A stretch of DNA of 64,000 nt from a virus (lineage: Duplodnaviria; Heunggongvirae; Uroviricota; Caudoviricetes). Where the stretch lies: IMG/VR virus record IMGVR_UViG_2775506858_000003, positions 1 to 64,000 of that record. The stretch is one strand, 5' to 3'. Within the stretch, counting starts at the first letter, position 1, and each line of letters starts with the position of its first letter. The position numbers were made by a program, and so were the translations under genes. Positions 23,949 through 60,970 of the stretch are shown here, piece after piece. The notes under the pieces are model-generated. The model was not told where the DNA came from. It saw only the letters and a program-made list of their open reading frames with translations, and ran no database searches.

Positions 23949-23967
23949 TTTCGTCCAGGATTGAAAT

Positions 23968-23988
23968 GCGCCCAAACGGGCGCTTTTT
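23968..23988 (+). terminator. terminator (GCGCCC-AAAC-GGGCGC + T5)
   Basis: Direct reading. Confidence 0.65.
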
Positions 23989-24002
23989 ATTGGGCGAAAG
24001 AA

Positions 24003-30976: not shown

Positions 30977-33900
30977 GCATGAGCAGTCAAAAATCAGGTG
31001 GCGGCAGCCGCACCCCTTACGAGGCGCCCAATACCCTATCGAGTGCACAGTTGTTGCGAGTGGTGGATGCTTTGTGCGAGGGCCCAATTGAAGGCTTTGC
31101 CAATGGTAATGAGTCACCGTTGAAATCTGTATTTTTGAGTGATACCCCGATTCAAAACAGTGATGGCACATACAATTTCAAGGGCGTGACCGGTTATTTC
31201 AATCGCGGCACGCCAGACCAAACCTATATACCAGGCTTCGATAAGACTGAACGTGTGGTAAACGTGGGCACAGCGGTCAAGAAAACCACCCCCATCACGC
31301 GCACCGTTTCTGATTCTATGATTGATGCGCTACGCGTGACTGTGGGTGTCGAGCGCAATGTGATGGTCAAAGACAATGGCGACACCTTGGCCGCACAAAC
31401 GCAATTACTCGTTGAATTGGTGCGTAACGATAGCACTACGCTGTTCCAATCGGTGACATTCAACGAAAAAGGCAGTGGCGCGTATTACCAAGATGTTGTT
31501 TTCACCGAATTGCCTGAAGCACCGTTTAATGTACGCGTGTCGCGTATCACGGCAGACAGCACAAGCGACAAAATCAGTAACAATACTTTTTTTGCGTCTT
31601 ACGTTGAGACCATCAATGCCAAGCTGTCATACCCAAATACCGCCATTTCGGCTTTGAAAATTGATTCTGACCAATTTGGTAGCAACAATCCGACTCGAAA
31701 TTTCTTGCTCAAGGGTAAGAATGACTTGTTGATTCCGACCAATTATGACCCAATCACTCGCAAATACACTGGCTTGTGGGATGGCAGCTTCAAAACAGGT
31801 TGGACTGATAACCCTGCTTGGATTGTGTACGATTTGGTGACCAATGACCGCTACAGCACCATTGCGACCAATTTGGGCTATGCCGATATCGACAAATGGA
31901 CTTTGTACAGCGTGGCCCAATGGTGTGATGAACTGGTCGATGATGGCATGGGCGGCAAAGAGCCGCGCTGTGTGTGCAATGCCAACATCAGCGACCAGCG
32001 CGAAGCTGGCGAGGTTTTGTCGTCAATCGCATCCATGTTCACGGGCTTTGTGCTGTGGAATGGTGAACAGCTTACTGTGACTGTCGATAAGCACAGCGAA
32101 CCGGTGGCGGTGTATACCAATGCGAACGTGGTCAATGGCCAATTTTCATACTCATTTGCTTCAGCCAAGGCCATACACACTGCTGTGCAAGTGACTTATT
32201 TGGATGAAACCGACAATTTTCGCCAAAAGACTGAATATGTTTCGGATGATGAGGCGATTAAGCAGTTTGGACTGAACATCAAACAAGTGACGGCTTTTGG
32301 CTGCTCACGGCGTGGTCAAGCGGTGCGATTTGGTGCATGGTTGTTGCAGACCGAGCTGCGCCAACAAGGCGCTGTCAGCTTCACCATAGGCCGCGAGGGG
32401 CTGAAACACTTGCCTTATGACGTGGTGCAAGTGGCCGATAACGATTATGCCGGCGTGCCATTTTCAGGCCGCTTGGTGGCTGCCGATGTTGACCGCATCA
32501 CACTTGACCGCCCAATTGAGAACGTGGCTATAGGCGCTTCGGTATATTTCGACGGTATCGATGGCACGCAGACTTCAAAAGTGGTCGAGCAAATCAGCCC
32601 AACCGAGTTGCGTCTTGAAGATGCGTTGCTGCTTGAGCCTGAAAACACGTTTGTGATTCACACCCAAGTTGCGTCCAGACTTTACCGTTGTATCAGCATC
32701 ACCGAGAACAGTGAAGACGGTACTTATACCATCGAAGCTTTACGCCACGATCCGACCAAATACGGCGTGGTCGACACTTGGGCAAACTTCCCTGTAACCG
32801 TGCAAAAAGAAACCCCGACTGTTGCCAATCCTGACGTGTCTACCGATGGCGGAGATGTGGTGGTGAAATGGGAGGGCTTAGGCGGCGATGGGGCGGTGTC
32901 ATACGACATCAAAGTGTATCGCAATGCGAAGCTATACAGCCACACACCTGACGCCAAGACACCCGAATTGCGTCTGCAAAATCTGCCCGATGGTGATTAT
33001 GTGGTCGAAATTCGCGCACGCAACGCAGCTGGGGTGCTGTCCGATCCTGTGACCAAAGCATTCAGCATCAATTACACAGTGACAGGCCTGAAAGCCACGC
33101 CTAAATTGTTTGCCATCGGTTTGGGCTGGACTTTGCCTGAAACGGTTGTGGCCACTGTGTATACCGAGGTTTGGTACGGCATTGAGGACAACATTGAACT
33201 TGCGAGCAAATTGGCCACGCTGCCACATCCGCAGTCACAATACACGCTGGACAATGTGGCGTTGGAAGAAGCGTTCTATTTTTGGGTGCGTTTGGTTGAT
33301 ACCAATGGCCGTGCTGGGGCGTTTACTGCTTCCGTTTTAGGTAAGTGCGACGATGACCCAAGTTTGATTTTGAAACAAATTGAGGGCCAAATCACCGGAA
33401 CCCAACTGCATCAAGACTTGGTAGACCAATGGCAGGGCAATATTGATTCTGCTGTGTATGCTGAAACACAGGCGCGCATTGCTGATGTGCTTGCACAAGC
33501 CAATGCCTTACAGACCGAGGCACAAACCCGTGCGGCCAACGATTTGGCCGAAGCCACAGCGCGTGCAAATGCGCTCAATGCTGAGGCCATTGCACGAACC
33601 AATGAGGTGCAACAGGCCGCACAACAGGCCGCTGATAATTTACTGGCTACGGCCACGCAACTGGGCACGCGAATCACCGTCACAGAAACGGTCAATGCGA
33701 CTCAGGCCACGCAAATCAGCACTGTGACTGCTGCTCAGGGTGCTACTGCTGCAGGTTTGCAGACGGAAACCAATGCACGCATCGCCGGCGATACTGCTGA
33801 AGCGACCGCACGCCAAACATTGGCCGCGCGTGTGGATGGTGCCCAAGCATCGATTACAGATTTGCAATCGACAGTTACCAACAACCAAAGTGCCACCACG

Positions 33901-45029: not shown

Positions 45030-45198
45030 CAGGTAAGCTAGGCTTTAAAACCTTCATCGCTGTGCAATTCCATTCTGAAAAATCTACAGTTGGGAAAAAC
45101 GTATCGCAGTGATAGTGCTTATCAAGGTTTGTTAGAACTAAGTGAGTCGCATGTGGTAAGAATTGCTCGTAAATGCTCGCTCCGCCAATGATGACCAA
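44989..45198 (-). pseudogene. folA: dihydrofolate reductase 3' fragment (C-terminal ~70 aa only)
   Basis: LVIIGGASIYEQFLPHATHLVLTNLDKHYHCDTFFPTVDFSEWN aligns with E. coli DHFR [45 protein letters not shown]; upstream part of the ORF is unrelated (antisense to terminase). Confidence 0.6.
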
Positions 45199-46293
45199 TT
45201 CTTCCGTTATTGGCAAATGATTATTGTCGATGAGGCATCTGGTGTAAGCGATGAGCATTACAACGTAATTACTGGTACGCAAACCCAAGACGGCAACAGG
45301 ACGCTTCTTTTCTCTCAAGGCACAAAAACAGTCGGCTATTTTTACGACACACACCACCGCCTTAGCTATATCAATACATCCATTCATGATGGTGGCTGGA
45401 TAAATCTACGTTTTAGTTCAGAAAATGCACCACATGTCACTCCGCAATGGTTAAGAGAGCGCCTAACGGAATGTGGTGGCCGTGATTCAAATGAATACAA
45501 AATTCGTGTGCTTGGGCTTTTTGCTGAAGACGATGAAAAAACACTGATTAATCGAGTGATTTTGAACCGTGCAATGGAGATGAAGTTACCGGCAATACGC
45601 GATGATGAGGCATGGGGATGGTTTTTACTCGTTGACGTTGCTGCTGGTGAGTACCGTGACTTCTCCGTGTGTGTATTAGCGCGTGTCATTGGTAATGGCG
45701 GAACATTTGAAGAAAACCCACGGCGAGTTGAATTTGTAGGCCTACCAATCTACAGCAATAGCATAGATGTAAAACAGTTCAAAGGCCGAATCATAGAAGA
45801 ATATAGCAAGCTATCAAATGCCCGAATCCTTGTTGATGCTGGTGGTACCGGCTTGCAGCTTTGCAAAGACCTTGAAGATGAAGGTGCTGATGTTGTCCGT
45901 GTTACATGGGGTAACCCGTGCTTCTTGAATGAAAATAAAAAGCGGTTCATAAATCTTCGCGCCCAAGCCATGGTAGGCCTACGCGATGCCATGCGTGATG
46001 GTTACTGTCGCTTCCCCCAAAACTTAGATAAAAAAGTGAGGGAAACACTGGAATTTCAAGCTACACACTTGCCGTATTCTTTCACTGAGCAAGTGCGGTA
46101 CCAAATGCTAAGCAAAGACAAGATGCGTGCTCAAGGAATTAAATCTCCCGACATCATCGATGCAATGTCTTTTGCGTTCCTTGAACGTATTTACTTCAAC
46201 GTAAGTGACCGGTCTGGGGTTGGTGGCGCAAAAGAAAAACGATTATCAGCACGCGAGCGATTGCAGCAAAAAATGGCAGAAGCGGCAAACTAG
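45163..46293 (+). pseudogene. terminase large subunit, N-terminally truncated (Walker B IIVDEAS at residue ~20, nuclease domain intact)
   Basis: Acidic nuclease-like motifs LLVDVAAG, ILVDAGGTG, IIDAMSF; no Walker A or upstream ORF. Confidence 0.55.
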
Positions 46294-48008: not shown

Positions 48009-49382
48009 ATGAAAGAACAAATATACTTTACTTTTTTGTCGATAAAATCTTGTGCAACTTACAAAATAGAATTTAATCCTAATACATCAAACAATTCATT
48101 GATTTACTTTATACAAGATTTCATTCAAACCTTTAATGGACAAGTATGTTTAACGCCCGAAGGTAACAGATTGGAAATAAATTGCTATCAAAAAAATACT
48201 TTAGAACTTCAGGCTAAAGTTTTAAAATTAGTTAATCGCAACAAAAGTAACCAGCCTGTAATAAATAAGATAAATGATTTTATAAAAAAATTATCAATCA
48301 ATGAACATTTTTTTATTTTACCAGTTGATTCAGCATCTATTCCATTAAAAAATCAAATTATGATGGCAAATGAATTAATGAGTTTAAACAACCCATCTCT
48401 AGACTATAACGATTTAGAAAATAGCTTCAATAAATTATTTGGACATATTATTGAGAAATACAAGTCATTTAGCCCCTCAATAGAAAAGAAAACCAAAATT
48501 GGTAAAGGACTAAAAACAGATAGAGTCTGTCGTTTTTGTCATAAAGACTCATCTCAAACATCATTTAAGAAAATTGCTCACGCAATTCCAGAAGCACTTG
48601 GCAATAAAAATATAATTCTAAACGAAGAATGTGACATTTGTAATGAAAAATTCTCACAAACTCTAGAAAAAGATATTTTAGTTTATTTGAGGCTTTTCAA
48701 TACATTTTATCAAGTGAAAAATAAAAATAATAAAGTCCCAAAAATAAAACAAAGTAATTTTGAGATGGTACATATTAACCCTAGTCTTGAAGAGAATAAG
48801 GAAATAATTGAAAAGGCTAAAGAGATATCAGAACATCCGTTCAACCCTAACAATTTTTTTGTAATTGTTTCTAGACAGAATAAAGATTCTTCAGCGCTAA
48901 GTGATACTATCCATTTTAAACCACCTACTATTTCATTTGATTCTGACGAAAAAATTATCTTACAAAATATATATAAAGCTCTAGTAAAGTTTGCATTAAG
49001 TTGCATTAAAACAGAAGATCTAGAGGGCTTCAAAGAAACATTAAATTGGATTGCGGATGAAAATTTATTTAAAGAAAATTTACCAAAAGTAGCTGTCTTA
49101 TTAAATCCAGAAAAATTGGAATTACATCCAAGTATAACCATTCATATAAGAAATGATGATGACACCTCCTTACCATATGCAGTGGGTGAATTTCACTATA
49201 CTACCTTTGTATATGTTTTTATAATTCCAACATTTAATGGAAAAGAAATTGAATTTAATAAATTCAAAGATTTCTTTAGCTATTATCAATTTGATAAACT
49301 TCCTTGGGTTTTTAATGACTTTAATGATTCAACACCAAGAAAACTTTCTTTGAAAATAAACTTTGAAGAAAATAAGAAATAA
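48009..49382 (+). CDS. AT-rich orphan protein with central HNH-like nuclease motif (CxxC...HxIPxxxGNxN...CxxCN)
   Basis: RVCRFCHKDSSQTSFKKIAHAIPEALGNKNIILNEECDICNEKF around aa 170-215. Confidence 0.5.
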   Translation: MKEQIYFTFLSIKSCATYKIEFNPNTSNNSLIYFIQDFIQTFNGQVCLTPEGNRLEINCYQKNTLELQAKVLKLVNRNKSNQPVINKINDFIKKLSINEHFFILPVDSASIPLKNQIMMANELMSLNNPSLDYNDLENSFNKLFGHIIEKYKSFSPSIEKKTKIGKGLKTDRVCRFCHKDSSQTSFKKIAHAIPEALGNKNIILNEECDICNEKFSQTLEKDILVYLRLFNTFYQVKNKNNKVPKIKQSNFEMVHINPSLEENKEIIEKAKEISEHPFNPNNFFVIVSRQNKDSSALSDTIHFKPPTISFDSDEKIILQNIYKALVKFALSCIKTEDLEGFKETLNWIADENLFKENLPKVAVLLNPEKLELHPSITIHIRNDDDTSLPYAVGEFHYTTFVYVFIIPTFNGKEIEFNKFKDFFSYYQFDKLPWVFNDFNDSTPRKLSLKINFEENKK

Positions 49383-49547: not shown

Positions 49548-50069
49548 TCATAATTTCAACCAAATAAAGCCACAAGCAAGTGCCTCAGTGCCAATGTAAC
49601 TATTCAACAGCTTGTCGTAACGGCTGGATAATGCACGGAAATGTTTTAAATTAGCAAATGTGTTTTCAACCACATGCCTTGTCTGATAAATCAACCAGTT
49701 CATATGGGAATTGCTGGTTTTGGCATTTTTCTTGCGCGGAATATTGGCTTGAACCCCTCGATAATGAATCAGCTCTCTAAACGCTTCAGAATCATAGCCT
49801 TTATCCGCATTTAATAACTCGGTATCTTTCAAATCCAAGAGTTGCAGCAGCATGGGCGCTATTTTAATATCGTGGGTGAGTCCGTCACTCACAATAAATT
49901 CAAGCGGATTACCATGTGCATCAACAGCCAAGTGTATTTTTGAGCTGTTGCCACCAACACTTTTGGCAATGCATTGATGGTCGCCACCTGCTGAGCCAGC
50001 GCTGCTCTGATGTGCTCGAACATGAGTGGCGTCAATTGAGATCCACTCCACATCAGAATTCTTAATCAA
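49548..50069 (-). CDS. IS5-family transposase OrfB (DDE domain)
   Basis: HLAVDAHGNPLEFIVSDGLTHD typical DDE_Tnp_1 region. Confidence 0.75.
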   Translation of the reverse strand: MIKNSDVEWISIDATHVRAHQSSAGSAGGDHQCIAKSVGGNSSKIHLAVDAHGNPLEFIVSDGLTHDIKIAPMLLQLLDLKDTELLNADKGYDSEAFRELIHYRGVQANIPRKKNAKTSNSHMNWLIYQTRHVVENTFANLKHFRALSSRYDKLLNSYIGTEALACGFIWLKL

Positions 50070-50506: not shown

Positions 50507-50995
50507 ATGGCTGATACCAATCCATTATTTACTTGGGATGAACTCAAGGACAACGAAAAAACCGCGCCTAAGAAATTGGTCACTGCGTTTAAACGCGCTG
50601 GTGCTGAAATCGCATCATCTTGGGTCGACGGCAAAATCAAACGTGAAAGCGGTATTTCGTACCGTGAAATCACTTTCGTATTGGCTGATAGTCAGCAAAT
50701 CACATTACGCGTAAAGCAAACTGGTGACGTTTACCAGGTACGCATGAACAACAAAGTTCTTCCAATTAAAGAACAAGACGATATTAAAGCGGCCTTGAGT
50801 GAGGTTGTGAAAGCATTGGATGCCAATGCCACCAAATACCAACGAACATTGGCTCGTCGAAAAGTTGAGCTGCCTAAAGGTATGCAATCAACGGTTAAAC
50901 GCAAAGAGGTCGCGCTTCAAGAACGCGAGTTTGAGTTGGACACCCGTATTGCAGAGGCACAAGCTGAACTAGTGGCCTTACAAGGTGGTGAATGA
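50507..50995 (+). CDS. hypothetical protein preceding the giant proteins
   Basis: ORF with ATGA overlap downstream. Confidence 0.4.
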   Translation: MADTNPLFTWDELKDNEKTAPKKLVTAFKRAGAEIASSWVDGKIKRESGISYREITFVLADSQQITLRVKQTGDVYQVRMNNKVLPIKEQDDIKAALSEVVKALDANATKYQRTLARRKVELPKGMQSTVKRKEVALQEREFELDTRIAEAQAELVALQGGE

Positions 50996-53922
50996 TGGCT
51001 ATTTTGCGTGATGACAATGGCAGAATAACCAACTTTCATGGCTTAAATATACAAACAGAAGTTCAAATGGGGCGGTACCGGCAAAAGGCTGGTAAGCGGC
51101 CTGTATTAATGGCCGCAGATTACGGTGAAATTACAGGCACGAATGGAGCAGACGGTGATGCAGTTGATTGCTACATCGGCGTATTTCCAGAGTGCTTGAA
51201 TGTCTACATCATCAACCAAACCAATTACACCGGCACATTTGATGAACACAAAGTAATGCTTGGATTTTTATCACAAGAAGATGCTGTAACAGCATATCAA
51301 TTAAGCACCTTTGGTAAAGAGCCAATGAGTGTAATTTCATGTACAGCCAGCCAGCTTCGATGGTGGCTTGAGCACGGGAATCTTAATGCACCAGTAACAG
51401 CAAATTCATTCCCTTTTGACCCAGAAAGCGATATAGCAATGAATCAAAACATATTTGATTGGAGTAATGAAGGTAGAGCGGTATCGCAAGCCTTGTATCA
51501 AATGCGCCATACCGATACCAGTGAGCAGCTCTTGGAGGCGGCCTCGTTTGATTCGGTGGTGTCTGAAATCATAGAGAATGAAAACGGTGAATTTGCTGTT
51601 TTTGACGCACTGGTCATTCAACAGGCGAAACTTAGCAAAACAGCGCAAATTATTGGCCGAACACTTAATCGCTTTGGCGGTGCCGAAATCCAAGTCGTTG
51701 AGAATGGTGTACAGGTTTCAGAACCATTCAAAAAGGCTGGTACTACGAATGTTGCGATGGTGTTTGAATTAAGCGATGGCCAAACCATTTCTTGCTTTCT
51801 ACATAATCCAGACAAGTCGCCCAACAAATTACAGGCCGATGATAACTTGGTTGCATGGCGTTGGAATCTGAACAAAAAAGATATCACCATTCTTGTTGCA
51901 AAAGAAAATGGCAAAGACCAAGAAATCACTCAAATTGCCAAACGCATTATGGCTTTTGCAGAGAAAAACAGCGCCCGATTTACCAAGGCAAATAACAAGC
52001 GTGCAGAGCGCCAAGCGGCCTTGGTAGAGGCGGAGGCTCGTATTGCTGAAAAAGAGCAGACTCTTGCTGATTTGGTGGCTCAAATAGATGCCATTAAGAA
52101 TGGAGGCAGTGTTCAAACAGAAGCAGAAGCTCAAAGCAACATCGAAGAAAATACTTCGACAGAGGCAAGTAATGAGCCTCTGGATACTAATCCATCAGCA
52201 AATAAAAAAACACCTTATTCACAGCCTTCTGAAGCAAGTGAAATAGACGATGACAGTGCTATGACGCAGCTGCCTGCTTATTTAGAAAAATCAGAAAGTA
52301 AGTTTGATGCAATACGCAATTACGTCAAAGAGAATCTTCAAGGTAAGTATGTCAACACAGTGATTGGCAAAGTATTTCTCTTGGGTTCAACATGGCAAAA
52401 AATGAAAAGTGGAGCTCATATTGATGATTTGAAGGTTGCGCTAATTCCATTGGTGCCCCAAATACTCAAAGGAGAGTATGAGAATCCAGAAGGAAATGAG
52501 AACTTAGGTGCTGCCTATAAACCTAGAGGGGAATACATCCGTTTCCATTCTTTCAAAAAAACAGTTGTTGTTGATGAGTTAAAAGTTGAGGCACGTGTTT
52601 TGGTGGGTGAGCGAAAAGACACTCATGAATTCGAGTTTGTCGCGTACTCATTGCATAAGGATGTGATGCGTCCTGAAATGAAAAAACCCTTAGAAGCTAT
52701 CGAGGAAATCGCCTCGGACTTGAAAGGGCTTAATCAGTCATCAGAAGATGACAATTCAAATGTACCTTCAGTTATGGACAGTGTCAATTCAGAAGGATGG
52801 AATATTCAAATTATCAGCGTAATTGATACAAGTGGTAACCATGTAACTGATTTGGAAGATAAACAAGCGCATGAAACGGCTGAGCAAGTTGAAAAAACCG
52901 ATGATAAGCATGGAATTAATTTAACTGGCAAAGAGCTTGGCGACTTCGATATTTCAACAAAAGATGGTATGGATGGCTTGCGTGATGCAGCGCATCAGTA
53001 TTTACGTACATTATTCACAAATCATGAAACGGTCTTTTGTCGAGCCATTAATGACGATGTGAATTTCAATTCTTCGGGTGCCAAAAAAATCAAAAAATTG
53101 AGTGTTAATCCTGTCAAAAATCAATTGGCCATTGCAATAAAACAAATTATTGCTGAAGGTAATTTGGTCAAAGGCAATATTCAAAGTTACAGCACTGAAG
53201 AACAAAAAATGGGCATTACATATGATGTTTTGCGAACAAAAGTTGTTGTGGACGGAGTTGAATATGGTGCTCGTACAGTATTGCGAAAATTACTTGATGG
53301 AAAATATCACTATGATTTGCAAGTAAAAGACAGTTTTGAAGCAATTATGGATGGTGTAAAAACAATGGGCGGACAATCCATGTCGGCTTACGAATCCGAT
53401 GTAATTGTGCGCCCAGTGTTGGGGTCAGAAGACCTTGAAATCAATACTACACATGATGATGATACTTCACAAGTATTTGATAAGGCAGATATTGAAACTG
53501 GTGCATTTGTGATGAATCTATTTGTTGATGTGAAAAATGAACAAGGTGAATGGGTTCCACTTTCTGATGCATTTGAACCTGATGAGCACAATGAATCTGA
53601 TGATACCCCATCAGCGCCAGTTTCTGAGCCTGTATCGATGCCACCGACGACACCTGAGCCTATGCCTGACGAAGCTGCAGAAAACGAGCCAGAGAGCGAT
53701 TCTGTTCAGGCAGAGCAAGAGCATTCTACCTCTGATGCCGATATTGAGTTCTTGAATGGAATTATTGCAGGAACGGAAAATATCATGGACAAAGAGTTCC
53801 ATGACCGTCTGGAGTCCGTGGCTGTGCGCATTAATGAAGGTGGCAAGGAAGAAATGATGGAATTGTTAGTGCAAGCAATTGATGCATATACAGCTAAATT
53901 AGACGAATTGAGCAAGGAATAA
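50992..53922 (+). CDS. giant (976 aa) acidic multi-domain protein, polyvalent-protein-like
   Basis: Long ORF with coiled-coil and acidic low-complexity linkers; no confident family. Confidence 0.45.
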   Translation: MMAILRDDNGRITNFHGLNIQTEVQMGRYRQKAGKRPVLMAADYGEITGTNGADGDAVDCYIGVFPECLNVYIINQTNYTGTFDEHKVMLGFLSQEDAVTAYQLSTFGKEPMSVISCTASQLRWWLEHGNLNAPVTANSFPFDPESDIAMNQNIFDWSNEGRAVSQALYQMRHTDTSEQLLEAASFDSVVSEIIENENGEFAVFDALVIQQAKLSKTAQIIGRTLNRFGGAEIQVVENGVQVSEPFKKAGTTNVAMVFELSDGQTISCFLHNPDKSPNKLQADDNLVAWRWNLNKKDITILVAKENGKDQEITQIAKRIMAFAEKNSARFTKANNKRAERQAALVEAEARIAEKEQTLADLVAQIDAIKNGGSVQTEAEAQSNIEENTSTEASNEPLDTNPSANKKTPYSQPSEASEIDDDSAMTQLPAYLEKSESKFDAIRNYVKENLQGKYVNTVIGKVFLLGSTWQKMKSGAHIDDLKVALIPLVPQILKGEYENPEGNENLGAAYKPRGEYIRFHSFKKTVVVDELKVEARVLVGERKDTHEFEFVAYSLHKDVMRPEMKKPLEAIEEIASDLKGLNQSSEDDNSNVPSVMDSVNSEGWNIQIISVIDTSGNHVTDLEDKQAHETAEQVEKTDDKHGINLTGKELGDFDISTKDGMDGLRDAAHQYLRTLFTNHETVFCRAINDDVNFNSSGAKKIKKLSVNPVKNQLAIAIKQIIAEGNLVKGNIQSYSTEEQKMGITYDVLRTKVVVDGVEYGARTVLRKLLDGKYHYDLQVKDSFEAIMDGVKTMGGQSMSAYESDVIVRPVLGSEDLEINTTHDDDTSQVFDKADIETGAFVMNLFVDVKNEQGEWVPLSDAFEPDEHNESDDTPSAPVSEPVSMPPTTPEPMPDEAAENEPESDSVQAEQEHSTSDADIEFLNGIIAGTENIMDKEFHDRLESVAVRINEGGKEEMMELLVQAIDAYTAKLDELSKE

Positions 53923-53924
53923 AC

Positions 53925-56072
53925 ATGACTGTTATTACACTAACTCCTATGGAAAAACTTCAATTAAACGGCCAATTAAAAAATGCCATTGATGCACGCA
54001 ATGCTGCTGAAGACCCAGTTGAACGCCTGTCATTGATTAAAACAGTACAGGAATTACGGGCAAAGCTTGGCTTAAGCAGCTCAATAGTCAATGAGCCAGA
54101 ACCAATTGCAGATACCAATGCAAAAGACGAAGAGCAGAAACAAGAACAGACCATCATTGATGAGGAGACTGAAACTAATGATGACTTATCGGATGTAACT
54201 ACTGCTGATAATTACCGGTGGCGTGATACCGCTTACATTGCTGGTGCACGCAAAGAGCTTGCTCAAAAATCCATATTACAGGCAAAGCGAGATGGTAAAA
54301 AATTGAATGTAAGTGACATCGATTGGGATGAGTTGGTAAGTGACCCACGCCTATCAGAATCATTGATTGTCAAAGAAAACATTTTTGGCCGTGTAGATTG
54401 GCCTGATTTGTCTGAAAAGGGTATGCCGTCTGAAGTTGCATATTTCATAAGCCGTGTGTATGCCAATATTGATAAAGTGCCATTAAATCCATTGCATCAA
54501 ACCAGCCAAAAAAACTATGTTCAGGCAGTTTCAAATATTCGAGAGCGCTTGGAAAGCTGTCGTACGTTTAAAGAAGTTGTAGAAGTGATGAATGATATTA
54601 TTCAAGCAATACCATCCTCCAAACTGATGAAAATGCTGTATGACGATGAATTGGCAACAGGTATTTCTCTACTCGAAAATATTGAAACCAACTATCAGCA
54701 TCTCAGCCAATCTACAAAGGATAAAGCACTATCTTACGAAGGGCAGATTTGGGCTGAACTTGGAGAGAAGTTTTCAAGCTGGCTTAGAAAATCTGTGAAT
54801 GTCACTTTGCGTAAGGCGCAGCGTGAAAGTAAATACAAGGAGTGGGCTAGTTGGTGTTCAGACTTCAAGAATGGAACCGATAGTGAAGGGAATCCCACAC
54901 CTGAAGGTGCCAAGCGTCCTAGAAAGCAGTCCTTTCAATTGGAAGCAGCAACCGATATTGAGCGAATTGGTGGGAAAGAAGTTGATTTACAATCTTCCAA
55001 ACAATTGGAGGAAATGTTCGGCTTTAAAGGCATTCAATCAGGTAATTGGGTTTTAAAAGATAAGTCTGCGGCTGAATTTCACATGAAAAACGCAGCCGCA
55101 GCGATGTTGGATATGTCAGATGTCTTGGGCATTGAGCCAAAATACCTGGGCTTAAAGGGCAACTTGGCATTGGCGTTTGGTGCACGTGGTAAAGCCGGTG
55201 CATTGGCTCATTATGAACCATCAACAAAGGTAATCAATATCACCAAGATGCGCGGCGGTGGCAGCTTGGGACATGAGTATTTTCATGCGATTGATAATTT
55301 GATTAAAGACCTATCTACTCAATCGGTTGGAAGTGCTAAATTCATGGGCACTTCAAATCCTGAAGAATTGCCAGACAAGGATTTATCAAGTGCATTTAAA
55401 GCACTACAAACAGCATTGAAAGTGCAAGAAAACGTTTTAGTTTATGACTTCAATAAGCATTACATTGAAGATGTTGATAATGTGAGTGATATCCGTAAGC
55501 GCACAATAGAAAGTCATGCCAGGTCAATCATGCGAATATCTGGTGTAGATGAAAAAACGGCTTCCATTGAGGAGATGAATCGTGGCTTGGCCAAAGGTGC
55601 GGCCAGTATGGTAGGGATGAATGCCTCATTACGCCCTCGTTATGCAGCGGCTGCTTTATTGTCACGATATTGGGCGCTAGGTGAGCAAAGTGGGGTAAGT
55701 ATTGTAGGTGGTGTGCTCACACATGAAATTGATGGATTCTCTGCTGATTCTGAGTTCGTTCAGGCTGCAATTGCATTGGATGAAGGTAAGGTAGATAAGT
55801 ACTGGTCAAAAGATTATGAGATGGCCGCACGTGCATTTTCCGCTTATCTGCAAGACCGGCTGGAAGAACAAGGCCGCAAGAATGATTATTTGGCTTATTC
55901 AACGAAGGGCGGCAATGGTAGAGCGGGCGAAATTGCATATCCACAAGGCCAAGAACGTTTGCGGATTAATGCGGCATTTGATGCTGTATTTGCGGTGATT
56001 CGTGAGAAAAAAGTGTTTGAAACGGCTAGTGAGAATACTGCTTTGATGGATTCGTTATTTAGTTCTAATTAA
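53925..56072 (+). CDS. large (715 aa) protein with HExxH zinc-metallopeptidase motif (GHEYFHAID)
   Basis: HEYFH motif at about aa 445. Confidence 0.45.
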   Translation: MTVITLTPMEKLQLNGQLKNAIDARNAAEDPVERLSLIKTVQELRAKLGLSSSIVNEPEPIADTNAKDEEQKQEQTIIDEETETNDDLSDVTTADNYRWRDTAYIAGARKELAQKSILQAKRDGKKLNVSDIDWDELVSDPRLSESLIVKENIFGRVDWPDLSEKGMPSEVAYFISRVYANIDKVPLNPLHQTSQKNYVQAVSNIRERLESCRTFKEVVEVMNDIIQAIPSSKLMKMLYDDELATGISLLENIETNYQHLSQSTKDKALSYEGQIWAELGEKFSSWLRKSVNVTLRKAQRESKYKEWASWCSDFKNGTDSEGNPTPEGAKRPRKQSFQLEAATDIERIGGKEVDLQSSKQLEEMFGFKGIQSGNWVLKDKSAAEFHMKNAAAAMLDMSDVLGIEPKYLGLKGNLALAFGARGKAGALAHYEPSTKVINITKMRGGGSLGHEYFHAIDNLIKDLSTQSVGSAKFMGTSNPEELPDKDLSSAFKALQTALKVQENVLVYDFNKHYIEDVDNVSDIRKRTIESHARSIMRISGVDEKTASIEEMNRGLAKGAASMVGMNASLRPRYAAAALLSRYWALGEQSGVSIVGGVLTHEIDGFSADSEFVQAAIALDEGKVDKYWSKDYEMAARAFSAYLQDRLEEQGRKNDYLAYSTKGGNGRAGEIAYPQGQERLRINAAFDAVFAVIREKKVFETASENTALMDSLFSSN

Positions 56073-56078
56073 AATATA

Positions 56079-56106
56079 TTTGCCGCAAATTTTGCGGCAA
56101 ATATTT
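56079..56106. terminator. bidirectional terminator (TTTGCCGCAAA-TTT-TGCGGCAAA) flanked by A/T runs
   Basis: Perfect 10-bp inverted repeat read directly. Confidence 0.75.
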
Positions 56107-56145
56107 ATAAAGAAAAACTTTCAATATGGAAAATATAGAAAAAAA

Positions 56146-57594
56146 TCAAATAGTTGCAATATTATTGAAGTCGGTCAAACGTGATAGGCTGATTGACTCA
56201 TACTGCCATTTAGGTACTGTTCTAGTACCTTTTTTTGCATCTTCAATTAAAGCCTTTAGATTTATATCTGGATTATTACCTAGAATACACTTCATGCTTT
56301 CGTAATATGATTTAGATTTTGATTTAGCAAAAATTTCAAATGGATAAAATGAGCGTGTATACATTAAAGTAGTTGGCCACCATTGTATAAAATATGTATC
56401 CGTAGAGTTAATTTCTGCTCTCAAATAAAGAATAAAATCGGCTTGCATCAAATCAATAAATTCAAGGTTTATTCCATTTGCTCTTTCCTTTAAAGTTGTT
56501 GCATGTAAATTAGCATATCCAAGGCTTAATCTTTGATTTCTAAATCCGAAAGACTCGCAATGCTGCTTAAATATTAAAAAAGAAGATAATGGTTCTCGAC
56601 TATCATGATGAAGAAAGTAGAAATTTTTATTCAAAAAATAATTTAATTCTTCAAATTTTTCATTTTTAATCATTAATGCAACAAAATACAAAAATAATTC
56701 ATTGATGATAAATTTGAAATTATCAAAGTCCCACCCTGCATAGGATGTAATATTTTCAGGCCTAAACAAATATCGAATGTTATTCTCAAAAAACTTATGA
56801 ATAATATTTATATATTTGTTACTTGATGAATACTGGATAAGTGCTGAAACTAATTGAATGAACTCATTTCTTGCAGGAAGAAAATCACTTATATTATTGA
56901 AAATTAAATCGTCTAATTCGATTTCTTTTTCACTAGCAAGAATATCACTTATTCTAAATTTTTCGAGATTAGTATTATAAAGATTTAAATAATCCGCTAA
57001 TAATCCATTAGTATTTGATTTATCATTCCGTATTGCATCTAAGCATCTTTTATAATGAGAAGTTGTATTTAAGGAGATGTGATTACCTTCATTTAAATAG
57101 GCAGGTAACATGCCTATTTCTGGTTTTTGATGTAATGGTTTATTGAAAATCCATCTAAGCAACTTTTCATACTCACCAAGATACTTTTCATCATTACTGC
57201 TTAAGTTTATATATATTTTCCCAGCATAATAGGTTGGTATAAATGCATTTCCGTTATCATCATATTCTCTAATTACAGCTACAAATTTTTCTTGAACTAC
57301 CTTGTTGTACAATTCTGAAGAAACTATTTGAGCTTCAATTCCAACACCACCAGCTCTTGCATTAGCCTTGGAAGCATAAGTTTTATCGCATATCAATAAT
57401 ACTTTTGTAATTTCTGGGTCATTTACCATTCTCTCCATAAAAGCAATAGAGTCATGACCTTCTTTTAAGTCCCATTTATCTAACATGGCATCAACGCCGT
57501 CTTGGCGAAGGCTTGTAGCTAACTCAAGAACCCAATCTTCATGTTCAGGGCTTGACCAACTGTAAGAAATAAATAATTTTGGTGGATTAGACAT
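56146..57594 (-). CDS. TIR-domain protein (N-terminal about 150 aa) with large uncharacterised C-terminal domain
   Basis: KLFISYSWSSPEHEDW... bacterial TIR signature; candidate catalytic Glu in GVGIEAQIV; about 35% GC. Confidence 0.55.
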   Translation of the reverse strand: MSNPPKLFISYSWSSPEHEDWVLELATSLRQDGVDAMLDKWDLKEGHDSIAFMERMVNDPEITKVLLICDKTYASKANARAGGVGIEAQIVSSELYNKVVQEKFVAVIREYDDNGNAFIPTYYAGKIYINLSSNDEKYLGEYEKLLRWIFNKPLHQKPEIGMLPAYLNEGNHISLNTTSHYKRCLDAIRNDKSNTNGLLADYLNLYNTNLEKFRISDILASEKEIELDDLIFNNISDFLPARNEFIQLVSALIQYSSSNKYINIIHKFFENNIRYLFRPENITSYAGWDFDNFKFIINELFLYFVALMIKNEKFEELNYFLNKNFYFLHHDSREPLSSFLIFKQHCESFGFRNQRLSLGYANLHATTLKERANGINLEFIDLMQADFILYLRAEINSTDTYFIQWWPTTLMYTRSFYPFEIFAKSKSKSYYESMKCILGNNPDINLKALIEDAKKGTRTVPKWQYESISLSRLTDFNNIATI

Positions 57595-57648
57595 ATTGAT
57601 TTACTTGAAAAATTACGGTTGTAGGAAATAGTTTTTAAAAAGTTAAAA

Positions 57649-58293
57649 TTAAGAAAGTTGCGGTTCATTTGAAACAGTTTGACTCGGTTTTTTGCTGTTA
57701 TTTTGAGCCAAATTCTGAAAATACAAACCGGTACTTTCATGTACTTTTTTAATAATAAAGTTGGAATATTTTTCAGTATTATCAAAACCAGCAGTATTCA
57801 CTCTCAAGCAAGTTATATCAGCATTTCGTAATATTAACTCTTTGTTGAAATCACTTTGTTTAGAATGACCACCGCCATCCACTTCAATGACAACAACAGG
57901 CTTTCTATCGTAATTGATTAATACAAAATCAACATAAAAACCTCCATGGAGGTCTTTAGGTTTTTCAGAGGCAGTTTGTTTAATAAAAGCTCGTAGTGGT
58001 ACTTGTGGGCAAACAATCAATTTTAATTTATGTTTTGAAATTATATGATTAAGCGTTAAATAGCAGTAAAACTCGCCCTTATTTATCAGTTCTGTTTGTT
58101 CATAAGTTGATTTAGAGATTGCCATTCCACGAGCAGTTGGATTCTCAAATAGCTGCTTTTCTTCAGAGGCCTTTCTCATTGCTTCAAATTTAGGGTTTGG
58201 TGTTTTCTTTTTGGTACCCTTATCATTAAGAAATATTACATACCCGACAATTGCGGCTATACAAACTATAGCGATACCTAAAATAATTTCCAC
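57649..58293 (-). CDS. membrane-anchored protein with DUF2726/Vsr-like PD-(D/E)xK nuclease-fold domain
   Basis: N-terminal TM helix; GGFYVDFVLINYDRKPVVVIEVDGGGHSKQSDFNKELILRNADITCLRV fits the DUF2726/DUF559 pattern. Confidence 0.5.
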   Translation of the reverse strand: MEIILGIAIVCIAAIVGYVIFLNDKGTKKKTPNPKFEAMRKASEEKQLFENPTARGMAISKSTYEQTELINKGEFYCYLTLNHIISKHKLKLIVCPQVPLRAFIKQTASEKPKDLHGGFYVDFVLINYDRKPVVVIEVDGGGHSKQSDFNKELILRNADITCLRVNTAGFDNTEKYSNFIIKKVHESTGLYFQNLAQNNSKKPSQTVSNEPQLS

Positions 58294-58475
58294 TTGAGTA
58301 TTCCCTTGTAATTATTAATATTGGTAGTTTTCAATAATTATACTGCATATTAGAGCATGTGCTATTGTTTTGAATGATAGAATAAATTGCTGCCAGAAAA
58401 GCGGTGATAACCTCGATACCGCAGCCTTCATTGAATGAGCGTGTGCAAGTGATTTCGAGCCTTGCCTGGTAGCAA

Positions 58476-58507
58476 TAAAAAAGGCCTCTAATGAGGCCTT
58501 TTTTTAA
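58476..58507. terminator. bidirectional terminator (AGGCCTC-TAAT-GAGGCCT) flanked by A7/T7
   Basis: Direct reading. Confidence 0.75.
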
Positions 58508-59139
58508 ATTGTTATGATGCTTCCATACAAATCAGCCATTTCATCTGCCAAATCTAAAGCGTATTCATTCGTTTGGTATTTCATAAAATAAAGGCAAGTT
58601 GCGAGAATGGCCATGTTGCCATTTGTGAGACCATCAACATCATATCGGAATTTGCCATTGTCGTTAATGCCGGCAATTTGAATGGTATCGCCGACCTGAT
58701 ACTTAAGTAATTCATCAGGAATATCAATGCAACCGGAGGCTTTGAGTTCGTTATAGGCCTGTAATGCTTCTGAAAACTGGTCAGGTGAAAACAAAACATT
58801 GAAATCGCGTCGGACAGGCGAATCTGAAATAACAGTGTATTTTTCTTTCCCTTCAAAATTGGTGGCGTCTTCTTCCATCAAATACAGGCACATATTGCCA
58901 TCATCATCTATTTCAATGCCTGATTTTATTGAAAGAGGTGTGCCTTGATATCGAGTAAATGTCGCACAAATCAGACCTGATTCATTATCGTTTTCTAAAT
59001 CCATATTTAATCCTATAGGAACATTGAAAATATTAGGGGTTTGACCGTCTATTATCAGTGCATCAAATACCGAATTATTTGGAGTTCCTATGCCTATTGA
59101 TGCCATCGCACTTGGTGTTGCATTCCGTGAGATAAGCAA
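58504..59139 (-). CDS. acidic hypothetical protein (start probably 59106), first gene of the minus-strand cassette
   Basis: ORF. Confidence 0.4.
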   Translation of the reverse strand: MLISRNATPSAMASIGIGTPNNSVFDALIIDGQTPNIFNVPIGLNMDLENDNESGLICATFTRYQGTPLSIKSGIEIDDDGNMCLYLMEEDATNFEGKEKYTVISDSPVRRDFNVLFSPDQFSEALQAYNELKASGCIDIPDELLKYQVGDTIQIAGINDNGKFRYDVDGLTNGNMAILATCLYFMKYQTNEYALDLADEMADLYGSIITI

Positions 59140-59401
59140 TGCCAGCAGAGATAAGAAGTCTTATGAAGTTCATTCAACGCATTATGTTCAGCCGCGTGAA
59201 ACCTTAGACCCAAGCCTTACCAATCAGCACGTGTACAAAAATCGTGCTGACTGGTTTGTTTCAGCTGCAATCAATGGTTTTGTAGATGTTGATGTGCCAG
59301 TTCAAACTGGTGGCCGGCGTTACATTCCTCTTGCTGAAGCCATCGCTTTGACAAGTCGAGCATTGGGTAAGAAGAAGAAAAATGGAATGAGGTTGTACTG
59401 A
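59090..59401 (+). CDS. possible small protein upstream of the SWIM gene (TGATATG overlap)
   Basis: ORF only. Confidence 0.25.
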   Translation: MPIDAIALGVAFREISNASRDKKSYEVHSTHYVQPRETLDPSLTNQHVYKNRADWFVSAAINGFVDVDVPVQTGGRRYIPLAEAIALTSRALGKKKKNGMRLY

Positions 59402-59402
59402 T

Positions 59403-60470
59403 ATGAAAAAGCAATCAATTACCCAAGATTTAAATCGTGTACATGCGCGTGAAGTCACTGCAGATAAGACACGTGAAAATGCATTAAACATTTTGAACTT
59501 GGGTAACGTGGCTAACATGCCCAAAACCCAAGCAGAAACGGTTCTAAATCGTATTAATCGCAATAGTGGTGCATTTGTTGAAAATATTGAGCTGGAAGAT
59601 TTATCCAAGTTCAGTAAGTCGATGAATGAGCTACAAGATGAATTCAATCGAACAAAGGTAAGAGGCGGCATTCATCCTAAAACGGTTATTAACATGAGCC
59701 GTAGAGAGGATATACAACGGTACCAACGTGAAATTAATGCTGCGTTACCGGCGAAAAAAGATAAGAATGGAGTTGTAATATTTCGTGTTAATGCCAGTGC
59801 TCAGTCAAATGTATCGCATCATATGGTTCAAGTTGAATTTTTGAATTTTCAGGCCGCCTTGTCAGGGGGGAAAATAACAAATAATTTGGCGGATGCTGTT
59901 TTACAAGGTGCAGTACGCTTTGATTGTGATTGTGGTCGTCATCGATTTTGGTACCGGTATATTGCCTCAGTTGGAAGTTTTGCATATGGGAAAGCAGAAA
60001 CAGGCTTTCCTAAAATAAGAAACCCAAATTTAAAAGGACTGGCCTGTAAACACGTTATTTTTGTAATGCGTATGCTGACACAATCGCAGTCAATGACTGG
60101 GTTTATGAAAAATTACCTATCTGAATTTCGTGAAAACCCGTTACAACGCAAGAAAACCTTATCAAATAAACAGGCTGATAAAATCGCGGCTGCAATAGCA
60201 AAAGAATCTTGGCGTAACATTAAAATTAGACGAACAAATAACAACGCATTGCCGAAAAACATCCGAGATGTGTTCTCAGCAAGCAGTAACAGCAGCATTC
60301 GTGGAACAGGTATAACGCCATCGCAATTGGCCAAAGCGAAAGCAAAAGACATTGCCCCACAAACAGCTGTTCGTGAGATTCAGCAAAAGCTGCAAAATCC
60401 TGATGTGCTTAATCAATTATCGCCGCAACAATTGGCGCAAATTCAACAAATATTAGGGGGTGATAAGTAA
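59403..60470 (+). CDS. SWIM zinc-finger-containing protein
   Basis: CDCGRHRFWYRYIAS...CKHVIFV = CxCxnCxH SWIM motif. Confidence 0.5.
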   Translation: MKKQSITQDLNRVHAREVTADKTRENALNILNLGNVANMPKTQAETVLNRINRNSGAFVENIELEDLSKFSKSMNELQDEFNRTKVRGGIHPKTVINMSRREDIQRYQREINAALPAKKDKNGVVIFRVNASAQSNVSHHMVQVEFLNFQAALSGGKITNNLADAVLQGAVRFDCDCGRHRFWYRYIASVGSFAYGKAETGFPKIRNPNLKGLACKHVIFVMRMLTQSQSMTGFMKNYLSEFRENPLQRKKTLSNKQADKIAAAIAKESWRNIKIRRTNNNALPKNIRDVFSASSNSSIRGTGITPSQLAKAKAKDIAPQTAVREIQQKLQNPDVLNQLSPQQLAQIQQILGGDK

Positions 60471-60970
60471 TGTCGTCACTATACGAAAATGGTAATCCAG
60501 TCACCGCTGCGGTCAATCGTGCTGTGAGAATGGTCACTTTAAATCATCCCTGGTCAATTGATGCGGTGGTGTATCGAAAAGAACGTGTTGTGCCAGCCGG
60601 TGAAGATAATAAATTGATTGGTGGAGCAGCAATATTGGGCGGTATCAGCGATGAAGCCGACTATGAAATCACCGTACAAGGAGCTTGTAAAGTCAAATTT
60701 ACAGGGCAATCAGAAGCCGCAAAACTTGCAGGAGACGGACTTTCATACACAATGCAGCCCGAAATTACAGCGATGATAGAACCAATCATTGAAAATGAGT
60801 TTGTAATTGAAAAATATGACCGCGTTTATTTGATTCTTCCGAATCTGTACATTGCCTATGAAGTAAGTGATATTAAATCGCCTGAAAATCTTCCAAATGG
60901 CCGCAGTTATTTGTATTACTTACAGCCTTTGGAGCAAGAAGCACAAACTGATTTAGATAATCTCATTTAA
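60470..60970 (+). CDS. hypothetical protein
   Basis: ORF, ATGT overlap with upstream. Confidence 0.4.
   Translation: MSSLYENGNPVTAAVNRAVRMVTLNHPWSIDAVVYRKERVVPAGEDNKLIGGAAILGGISDEADYEITVQGACKVKFTGQSEAAKLAGDGLSYTMQPEITAMIEPIIENEFVIEKYDRVYLILPNLYIAYEVSDIKSPENLPNGRSYLYYLQPLEQEAQTDLDNLI

What the first reader, a model, noticed from the sequence alone, without database searches (positions are those of the whole stretch)
56079..59139. AT-rich three-gene minus-strand cassette: TIR-domain protein + membrane-anchored PD-(D/E)xK-like protein + acidic protein, inserted into a plus-strand phage/plasmid gene block
Seen: three minus-strand ORFs (59139->58504, 58293->57649, 57594->56146) of clearly lower GC than their neighbours. 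The block is bracketed by two perfect bidirectional hairpin terminators (56079-56106, 58476-58507), with a third in-block hairpin between genes 1 and 2. The 482-aa protein begins KLFISYSWSSPEHEDW, the hallmark of bacterial TIR/DUF1863 domains, with a candidate catalytic Glu in GVGIEAQIV. Its roughly 330-aa C-terminal domain has no motif I recognise (no Walker A, no SLOG/STING-like features). The 214-aa protein has one N-terminal TM helix followed by ...YVDFVLINYDRKPVVVIEVDGGGHSKQSDFNKELILRNADITCLRV, which matches the DUF2726/DUF559 (Vsr-like restriction-endonuclease fold) pattern. Established: TIR domains act as NADase/signal-generating modules in Thoeris, CBASS, Pycsar and TIR-STING systems. 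Known Thoeris ThsA partners are SIR2-SLOG or TM-Macro, not TM plus PD-(D/E)xK. Inference: a TIR sensor/signal module paired with a membrane-tethered nuclease-fold effector, plus an upstream acidic protein, is not an architecture I can map to a described system. Embedded in mobile DNA, it is a strong candidate for a new defence or abortive-infection module.
Basis: partly seen in the sequence, partly recalled or inferred. Interest (0 to 1): 0.88.

Follow-up and report, generated by a model that had tools for sequence, protein, structure and literature searches.

The report
Prophage cargo: known bSEFIR defence gene
The supposed new three-gene immune system is really a known single-gene anti-phage protein (bSEFIR, an NAD+-destroying enzyme) that sits, in a swappable cargo slot of a P1-like prophage, beside an unrelated, uncharacterised membrane-anchored nuclease-fold gene and an ordinary phage backbone gene.

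Summary
The sequence features are real: three minus-strand ORFs, two strong hairpin terminators, low GC, a TIR-like N-terminus and a TM + DUF2726 protein. They do not form one system.

- **482-aa protein:** a full-length member of bSEFIR (PADLOC model E=1e-111; SEFIR scores above TIR in Pfam; PDB 5Y8E E=2e-43). The literature describes bSEFIR as a single-protein, NAD+-depleting defence.
- **No conserved partner:** in 80 genomic loci of its homologues, profile and BLAST searches found no DUF2726 gene within 6 kb.
- **DUF2726 without bSEFIR:** the closest DUF2726 homologues (82-86% identical) have no bSEFIR downstream.
- **"Acidic protein":** really 166 aa (start at 59004). It is a phage backbone gene (phrog_4179), conserved next to the 103-aa and gp25-like genes. 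Downstream of it, related contigs carry different cargo (TPS secretion genes, a PilJ-domain gene).

Verdict: a new member of a known defence family in a prophage cargo slot. Interest is low to moderate.

The parts
56146..57594 (-). bSEFIR gene (482 aa). N-terminal SEFIR domain is residues ~1-150 (nt 57145-57594), with invariant D39 and E87. The all-alpha C-terminal domain is residues ~175-482 (nt 56149-57072).
57649..58293 (-). Gene for a small membrane-anchored DUF2726 (Vsr/DUF559-like PD-(D/E)xK fold) protein, 214 aa. TM helix is residues 2-24, the Lys-rich linker follows, and the nuclease-fold core is residues 72-166. An independent cargo gene of uncharacterised function.
57595..57648 (-). 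54-nt AT-rich spacer (GC 0.20) between the DUF2726 and bSEFIR genes. No terminator, so co-transcription is possible. Homology with the closest DUF2726 loci ends just upstream, at ~57690-57698.
56076..56104 (.). Bidirectional intrinsic-terminator-like hairpin shared by the convergent 715-aa LPD1 gene (+) and bSEFIR (-). It marks the left edge of the low-GC cargo.
   Evidence: 13 pairs; I1.
58477..58504 (-). Perfect 12-bp hairpin with a T-run. It is the terminator of the acidic backbone gene and overlaps that gene's stop codon. It separates that gene from the cargo.
   Evidence: I5. The hairpin position is conserved in L109, L111 and L112.
58375..58476 (.). Conserved ~100-nt non-coding element at the right border of the cargo slot. 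It has a long-range inverted repeat ATTGCTACCAG...CTGGYAGCAAT and inner palindromes. Function unknown.
   Evidence: About 95% identical in 4 contigs whose coding DNA is ~80% identical. Homology to the different-cargo contigs stops at its edge. Fold z-scores are -2.6 and -2.1. No Rfam or tRNA match.
58337..58342 (-). Candidate -10 box (TATAAT on the minus strand), 44 nt upstream of the GTG start of the DUF2726 gene. An AAGGGA ribosome-binding site lies 9 nt before the start.
   Evidence: Read directly from the sequence. Conserved in L111 but not in the different-cargo contigs. Not reported by the consensus scan, so it is tentative.
58504..59004 (-). Acidic 166-aa phage backbone gene (phrog_4179, pI 4.05). 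It flanks the cargo slot and is not part of the defence genes.
   Evidence: phrog_4179 2.6e-18. Annotated length is 166 aa. Synteny with the 103-aa and 355-aa genes is kept in L111, while the downstream cargo differs in L109, L110, L112, L113 and L114.
59090..59401 (+). 103-aa backbone gene, divergent from the acidic gene and abutting the P1 gp25-like 355-aa gene (59403-60470).

Best explanation
The window comes from the chromosome of Vitreoscilla massiliensis. The region is a distant P1-like prophage. A Dar-type anti-restriction block (Hdf-like, DarA_N/InPase/LPD3 and LPD1 proteins) lies on one side. Head and tail genes (gp25-like, phrog_1014) lie on the other.

Between the LPD1 gene and the conserved acidic backbone gene lies a variable cargo ('moron') slot at ~56105-58375. 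In this phage it holds two independently acquired low-GC genes.

**Gene A: bSEFIR**
- It is a stand-alone abortive-infection protein.
- By homology with the characterised family, the all-alpha C-terminal domain keeps the N-terminal SEFIR domain inactive until a late product of an infecting phage is sensed. Capsid-protein escape mutants are reported.
- SEFIR-SEFIR association then builds an active NADase. D39 is the likely interface residue and the invariant E87 is the likely catalytic Glu.
- The NADase cleaves NAD+ to ADP-ribose and nicotinamide. This starves the infected lysogen and blocks the superinfecting phage.

**Gene B: the TM-DUF2726 protein**
- It is a solitary 214-aa protein with an N-out, C-in membrane anchor and a cytoplasmic Vsr/DUF559-like nuclease fold.
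- It retains a plausible catalytic set (E74, D122, E137, H143, K151).
- It is not a partner of bSEFIR.
- Its most likely role is an independent accessory function of the lysogen, such as cutting incoming DNA at the inner membrane (superinfection exclusion). This role is a weak inference.

**The acidic 166-aa gene** belongs to the phage backbone and has its own terminator.

**Basis of each step**
- Shown here: homology, architecture, residue conservation, lack of co-occurrence, and slot variability.
- Taken from the literature: defence, NAD+ depletion, and capsid escape.
- Inferred: activity in this host, the membrane topology, and the role of the nuclease.
For: **bSEFIR membership**
- PADLOC bSEFIR E=1.1e-111 over residues 1-481.
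- Pfam SEFIR scores above TIR_2, and the domain is N-terminal. This is the selection rule quoted in Millman et al..
- PDB 5y8e BcSEFIR E=1.8e-43.
- More than 2000 homologues of ~478 aa are conserved along the whole length.

**Single-gene nature**
- The literature describes it so: bioRxiv 10.1101/2022.05.11.491447 and 10.1101/2024.02.11.579819.
- In 80 loci from more than 15 phyla, tblastn and a subfamily HMM find no DUF2726 within 6 kb.
- Of 148 clustered proteins (146 immediate neighbours plus the two window proteins), 135 are singletons.
- The most frequent neighbour family is Phage_integrase, at 5 of 146.

**Independence of the DUF2726 gene**
- Homologues at 82-86% identity have no bSEFIR downstream.
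- The last 78 nt of L111 and the first 78 nt of L002 are 100% identical. This suggests a sister phage with the order acidic gene, element, DUF2726, no bSEFIR.
- Subfamily members occur alone next to a filamentous prophage, a siphovirus head module, a Fic gene, and hfq/integrase.

**Backbone and slot**
-.
- Homologues of bSEFIR already occur in temperate phages.
Against: - The two cargo genes are co-oriented, 54 nt apart, with no terminator between them and similarly low GC. They may therefore be one transcription unit, and a local functional interaction cannot be excluded by genomics alone.
- The PADLOC profile covers 350 positions against 481 residues, so this clade carries about 130 residues of insertions relative to that model.
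- No experiment exists for this clade or this host.
- The sister-lineage 'empty site' is stitched from two short metagenomic contigs from different samples.
- The closest DUF2726 contigs are short: only 175-380 nt lie downstream of the gene.
- The proposed role of the DUF2726 protein has no direct support.
Confidence: 0.8

Rival explanations
1. One reading: the three genes, or at least TIR/SEFIR plus TM-DUF2726, form one cooperative defence system. The TIR-like protein senses or signals, and the membrane-tethered nuclease is the effector.
For: The genes are adjacent and share a strand. The gap is 54 nt with no intervening terminator. Both have low GC. TIR-plus-effector logic is known from Thoeris.
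Against: - There is no co-occurrence in either direction.
- bSEFIR is itself the NADase effector and works as a single protein.
- The acidic gene has its own terminator and is backbone.
- DUF2726 has no PADLOC match.
Confidence: 0.06
2. The TM-DUF2726 gene is not a defence gene. It could be a selfish or homing-type endonuclease, or a phage lysogeny or host-DNA-processing function that merely rides in the slot.
For: The best structural matches include the homing endonuclease I-Bth0305I and DUF559 proteins. Steczkiewicz et al. note that DUF2726 is surrounded by mobile elements. The gene occurs next to IS110 and integrase genes.
Against: A conserved N-terminal membrane anchor in all subfamily members is atypical for homing endonucleases. 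The gene is not inserted within another gene. It recurs as a stand-alone cargo gene on unrelated phage types.
Confidence: 0.3
3. The bSEFIR homologue is inactive or has been repurposed, for example as a protein-protein interaction scaffold, and provides no immunity here.
For: No experimental data exist for this clade. Before 2022, bacterial SEFIR domains were proposed to be general interaction domains (cited).
Against: The ORF is intact. All family-invariant residues are retained in both domains, including E87 and D39. The family is strongly conserved across phyla, which indicates selection.
Confidence: 0.08

Closest known systems
bSEFIR (bacterial SEFIR single-gene defence; Millman et al. [quoted passage not shown]
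   Same: N-terminal SEFIR domain plus a homologous C-terminal domain. The model matches over the full length (E=1e-111). Gene organisation is solitary. The Asp (D39) and Glu (E87) are conserved. Homologues also occur on prophages.
   Different: It is a Gram-negative (Neisseriaceae) prophage copy of the ~478-aa clade, with about 130 residues not covered by the PADLOC profile. It is untested experimentally. Here it lies directly downstream of an unrelated DUF2726 gene.
BcSEFIR domain structure (PDB 5Y8E/5Y8F, Bacillus cereus)
   Different: The crystal structure covers only the SEFIR domain. No solved structure matched the C-terminal alpha-helical domain.
Thoeris and other TIR-based systems (ThsB/ThsA, TIR-STING, TIR-SAVED)
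   Same: STIR-clan fold. NAD+ is the substrate. The outcome is abortive infection.
   Different: Those systems are multi-component and signal-based. bSEFIR is a one-protein sensor and NADase. PADLOC TIR-related models scored only 0.0045-0.015.
Rst_2TM_1TM_TIR (Rousset et al. 2022, a phage and satellite hotspot system; recalled from memory)
   Same: A superficial resemblance: a TIR-like protein next to a single-TM protein in a prophage hotspot.
   Different: No PADLOC model other than bSEFIR matched the 482-aa protein significantly, and none matched the TM protein. There is no 2TM gene. The TM protein carries a nuclease fold.
DUF2726 / DUF559 / Vsr-like PD-(D/E)xK nucleases (Pfam PF10881; PDB 3HRL, 3R3P, 1CW0)
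   Different: It is a small stand-alone protein with an N-terminal membrane anchor. Most metagenomic DUF2726 relatives recovered here are C-terminal domains of ~910-aa proteins. No function is known for any member.
Variable anti-defence and defence 'moron' hotspots of temperate phages (e.g. P2/P4 hotspots; the P1 dar operon)
   Same: Conserved flanks with interchangeable low-GC cargo. The slot is adjacent to a Dar-type anti-restriction block.
   Different: This is a different phage lineage and a different slot. It has a highly conserved ~100-nt structured non-coding element at its border.

Membership tests
bSEFIR | SEFIR domain at the N-terminus, scoring higher than TIR (the selection rule in Millman et al. 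methods) | tested here: met
bSEFIR | Full-length match to the family HMM, including the C-terminal (sensor) domain | tested here: met
   PADLOC PDLC03957 E=1.1e-111, 372.6 bits, residues 1-481 against profile 35-384/412. The SEFIR domain alone gives ~150 bits, so the remainder comes from the C-terminal domain. phrog_11745 covers 3-472 of 482.
bSEFIR | Single-gene system with no conserved partner gene | tested here: met
   80 homologue loci were examined. 135 of the 148 clustered proteins (146 immediate neighbours plus the two window proteins) are singletons, and the top shared Pfam family covers 5 of 146 neighbours. There is no DUF2726 within 6 kb.
bSEFIR | Conserved Asp needed for SEFIR-SEFIR interaction (D40 in the validated protein) and a conserved Glu in the GGVGxE loop | tested here: inconclusive
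   D39 (LDKWD) and E87 are invariant in 20 homologues.
bSEFIR | Phage defence with infection-triggered NAD+ depletion | not testable with these tools
   Known only from the literature for the Bacillus protein.
   Searches found no co-occurrence in 80 bSEFIR loci, 26 DUF2726 loci, or 4 annotated contexts of the small TM-DUF2726 subfamily.
DUF2726 (PD-(D/E)xK clan, Vsr-like) | Pfam PF10881 hit above the gathering score | tested here: met
   42.5 bits against a cut-off of 24.7, residues 68-180.
DUF2726 (PD-(D/E)xK clan, Vsr-like) | Restriction-endonuclease-like alpha/beta core with conserved acidic residues | tested here: met
phrog_4179 (phage protein of unknown function) | Profile match and conserved position in related phage genomes | tested here: met
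   E=2.6e-18, profile 7-149/169. Synteny with the 103-aa and 355-aa genes is kept in L111.

The most novel reading that the evidence does not exclude
The small membrane-anchored DUF2726 protein represents an undescribed, stand-alone, phage-borne defence or superinfection-exclusion gene. It would be a Vsr-like nuclease tethered to the cytoplasmic face of the inner membrane that cuts incoming foreign DNA. It would be carried as interchangeable cargo by unrelated prophages (P1-like, filamentous, siphovirus). The conserved ~100-nt element beside it would mark the cargo-exchange border.
Probability: 0.2. Interest if true: 0.55.

Novelty: new member of a known kind. Interest (0 to 1): 0.24.

Why it matters
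The main value is corrective. An apparently new TIR + membrane-nuclease architecture dissolves into a catalogued single-gene NADase defence (bSEFIR) plus unrelated neighbours. It should not be pursued as a new system.

Three modest positives remain:
1. It documents a prophage-borne bSEFIR in a P1-like phage of Neisseriaceae, sitting right next to the phage's own anti-restriction (Dar) block.
2. It defines a variable cargo slot with conserved flanks. That slot could be mined for further cargo genes in this phage lineage.
3. It flags a rare, uncharacterised family of membrane-anchored DUF2726 nuclease-fold proteins that recur on prophages. This family is a cheap candidate for a plaque-assay screen.

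Tried and rejected
- **Megablast** of 50-64 kb against the phage collection: no match.
- **Five IMG/VR protein-based scans** (acidic, DUF2726, the A3 alignment, gp25-like, LPD1 proteins) and one exact 28-mer scan for the conserved element: nothing.
- **tblastn against phages:** the acidic and DUF2726 proteins gave no match. Against plasmids, the DUF2726 protein gave only two weak hits.
- **NCBIfam:** no meaningful hit for any of the three proteins.
- **Comparison with P1 itself and with Acinetobacter phage ABMM1:** too distant to define an empty site.
- **Metagenome scan:** it failed with the 12-sequence alignment. With 6 sequences it returned only distant relatives, mostly C-terminal domains of ~910-aa proteins.
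- **Direct repeats flanking bSEFIR** as an insertion signature: only short AT-rich chance matches.
- **Rfam and tRNA scans** of the cassette: only sub-threshold chance hits.
- **PADLOC on seven neighbouring proteins,** including the low-GC HNH protein: no hits.
- **Rejected idea:** that the acidic protein is a third component of the system. It has its own terminator, backbone-like GC and conserved synteny with structural genes.
Full report
**1. Observation**

The three minus-strand ORFs exist at 56146-57594 (482 aa), 57649-58293 (214 aa, GTG start) and 58504-59139 (211 aa from a TTG). All three have database relatives, so they are real genes rather than chance ORFs:
- 482 aa: PADLOC E=1e-111.
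- 214 aa: Pfam DUF2726 6.5e-11.
- Third ORF: phrog_4179 5e-18.

The two strong hairpins are present. One has its core at 56076-56104. The other is 58477-58504, with perfect 12-bp arms.

GC falls to 0.25-0.34 across 56000-58250. Per-gene values:

| Gene | GC | GC3 |
|---|---|---|
| SEFIR gene | 0.298 | 0.217 |
| DUF2726 gene | 0.330 | 0.237 |
| Acidic gene | 0.383 | 0.347 |
| Flanking genes | 0.40-0.45 | 0.31-0.41 |

Three corrections follow.
- The acidic ORF is over-extended. Its TTG-start extension overlaps a + strand 103-aa gene (59090-59401) that abuts the next structural gene. NCBI and an independent gene call start it at the ATG at 59004, giving 166 aa with pI 4.05. The PHROG profile then aligns from position 7.
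- The hairpin at 58477-58504 overlaps this gene's stop codon, so it is that gene's own terminator. The two 'bracketing' terminators therefore enclose only two genes.
- The acidic gene's GC is close to that of the backbone.

**2. Source and setting**

Exact matches identify the source as the Vitreoscilla massiliensis chromosome. The + strand genes around the cassette are:
- an Hdf-like anti-restriction protein (phrog_1620, 1e-43);
- a 976-aa InPase/DarA_N/LPD3 polyvalent protein;
- a 715-aa LPD1 protein;
- on the far side, a P1 gp25-like protein (36% identical to P1 gp25);
- a phrog_1014 578-aa protein.

This is a distant P1-like prophage. No close relative exists in the phage collection or IMG/VR.

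**3. The 482-aa protein is bSEFIR**
- It matches the PADLOC bSEFIR model at E=1.1e-111 (372.6 bits) over residues 1-481, and phrog_11745 at 6e-132 over its full length.
- Pfam scores SEFIR (60 bits) above TIR_2 (48 bits), and the domain is N-terminal. That is the selection rule Millman et al. used for this family.
- A profile of 20 homologues hits the Bacillus cereus SEFIR crystal structure 5Y8E at 1.8e-43.
- The SEFIR domain alone accounts for ~150 bits.
- The family is large: more than 2000 hits of ~478 aa at 45-51% identity, and 390 loci in the species-level genome collection, across many phyla and archaea.

According to the literature, SEFIR is a single-protein defence:
- It was validated for the Bacillus sp. 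NIO-1130 protein against phi29, and defence was abolished by D40A (10.1101/2022.05.11.491447).
- It depletes NAD+ to ADPR and nicotinamide through its N-terminal SEFIR domain, and is countered by the phage NARP1 pathway (10.1101/2024.02.11.579819).
- Phages escape it through capsid-protein mutations (10.1101/2022.08.27.505566).

Homologues already occur in temperate phages, such as Clostridium phage D-1873 and Klebsiella ST15-OXA48phi14.1.

**4. Do the genes co-occur? No.**

Starting from bSEFIR, I examined 80 loci of bSEFIR homologues with up to 6 kb on each side:
- tblastn with the DUF2726 and acidic proteins found nothing at E<=1.
- An HMM of the DUF2726 subfamily found nothing among 7128 stop-to-stop ORFs.
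- Clustering the 146 immediate neighbours together with the two window proteins left 135 of 148 as singletons.
- In Pfam, the most common neighbour family was Phage_integrase (5 of 146), and DUF2726 was not among the recurrent families.

Starting from DUF2726:
- The closest homologues (82-86% amino-acid identity; L001-L003) share DNA homology only across window ~57690-58322.
- They carry no bSEFIR N-terminus in any frame in the 175-380 nt downstream.
- A bSEFIR HMM found nothing in 26 DUF2726 loci.

**5. The acidic gene is backbone, and it flanks a variable slot**
- L111 is 79% identical to window 58240-60924. It keeps the order 355-aa, 103-aa, (divergent) acidic gene, spacer, start of the DUF2726 gene.
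- In L109, L110 and L112 homology covers only 58375-58880. Downstream lie a ShlB/POTRA transporter with an 812-aa exoprotein, or a different 546-aa gene.
- In L113 and L114 a PilJ-domain gene follows.
- The slot between the LPD1 gene's terminator (~56105) and ~58375 therefore carries different cargo in related phages.
- The last 78 nt of L111 are 100% identical to the first 78 nt of L002. This suggests a sister lineage with the order acidic gene, element, DUF2726, ~240 nt of AT-rich non-coding DNA, then an unrelated convergent gene. That is DUF2726 without bSEFIR. This stitching of two contigs is an inference.

**6. The TM-DUF2726 protein**
- An exhaustive HMMER search of 1.84 billion representatives found only 41 relatives (9 at E<=1e-10). 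All are 170-210 aa.
- The 12 aligned members show a hydrophobic N-terminal helix, a basic stretch and a DUF2726 core. N71, E74, Q97, D122, F123, G140, G142 and H143 are invariant. R55, E137, D148 and K151 are nearly invariant.
- The AlphaFold model (pLDDT 89) shows a TM helix at 2-24 and an alpha/beta core at 72-166.
- The Lys-rich segment after the helix predicts a cytoplasmic nuclease domain. This is an inference from the positive-inside rule.
- No PADLOC, PHROG or NCBIfam model matches it. The literature lists DUF2726 only as a predicted REase-fold domain of unknown function, often near mobile elements.
- Subfamily members occur alone next to a Neisseria-type filamentous prophage plus IS110 (L118), after a siphovirus head module and a SocA_Panacea gene (L120), before a Fic gene (L117), and between hfq and a tyrosine recombinase (L116).
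- It therefore looks like a solitary accessory gene found on prophages in at least three of the six contexts examined. A defence or exclusion role is plausible but unsupported by any test.

**7. Mechanism**

The cassette is best read as two independent cargo genes.
- bSEFIR acts as a one-protein sensor and NADase abortive-infection module that protects the lysogen from other phages.
- The DUF2726 gene acts separately.
- The two may still be co-transcribed. The gap is 54 nt with no terminator. A TATAAT lies 44 nt upstream of the DUF2726 start. A promoter-like site at 57807-57778 could serve bSEFIR alone.

**8. Conserved non-coding element**
- Directly after the acidic gene's terminator, window 58375-58476 is about 95% identical in four contigs whose coding DNA is ~80% identical. 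Homology to the different-cargo contigs ends at its edge.
- It contains an 11-bp long-range inverted repeat and inner palindromes. One palindrome differs between lineages by symmetric changes.
- Predicted folding is only moderately better than shuffles (z -2.6 on the + strand, -2.1 on the - strand).
- It has no Rfam family, is not a tRNA, occurs once in the window, and has no exact 28-mer match in IMG/VR.
- Its function is unknown.

**9. Verdict**
- The interpretation as a new three-gene architecture is not supported.
- The defence gene is a new member of a known single-gene family. The acidic gene is phage backbone.
- The only possibly new item is the rare membrane-anchored DUF2726 family.

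Noticed in passing
window 58375-58476: A ~100-nt non-coding element is more conserved (~95%) than the neighbouring coding DNA (~80%) across four related contigs. It has a long-range inverted repeat and palindromes, and it sits exactly at the border where the cargo differs between phages. It matches no Rfam family or tRNA.
   Followed up: partly
window 48009-49382 (+) and 49548-50069 (-): A second low-GC island (GC 0.267, GC3 0.20) in the same prophage encodes a 457-aa protein with an HNH_5 domain (phrog_26663). No PADLOC model matches it. A DDE transposase fragment or IS lies next to it. This may be another cargo or defence candidate.
   Followed up: partly
window 50507-56072 (+): A Dar-type anti-restriction block: an Hdf-like protein (phrog_1620), a 976-aa InPase/DarA_N/LPD3 polyvalent protein and a 715-aa LPD1 protein. 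The phage's counter-defence genes therefore sit directly beside its defence cargo.
   Followed up: partly
window ~12800-39500 (+): A separate lambda-like siphovirus structural module: portal at 14148-15587, tape-measure protein at 23961-26933, and a 1963-aa J-like central tail fibre at 30973-36864. It lies upstream of the P1-like region, which suggests two adjacent or mosaic prophages.
   Followed up: no
window 45163-46293 (+): A 376-aa ORF matches only part of terminase large-subunit profiles (phrog_2 positions 365-596 of 807). It may be a truncated or remnant terL at the junction between the two phage regions.
   Followed up: no
L109 1647-5761; L110: In a related phage lineage, the same cargo slot holds a two-partner-secretion pair: a ShlB/POTRA transporter plus an 812-aa protein with Glug, MBG_2 and YDG domains. 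This is unusual phage cargo.
   Followed up: no
L115 7126-8192 (same strain, other assembly): The 355-aa gp25-like gene of the window is called as two genes (157 + 194 aa) in another assembly of the same strain. This suggests a frameshift difference or an assembly error.
   Followed up: no
L118 276-6570: A relative of the small TM-DUF2726 protein lies at the end of a Neisseria-type filamentous prophage (Rep_trans, Zot, TspB, DUF2523), next to an IS110 transposase. The family therefore rides on very different phage types.
   Followed up: partly
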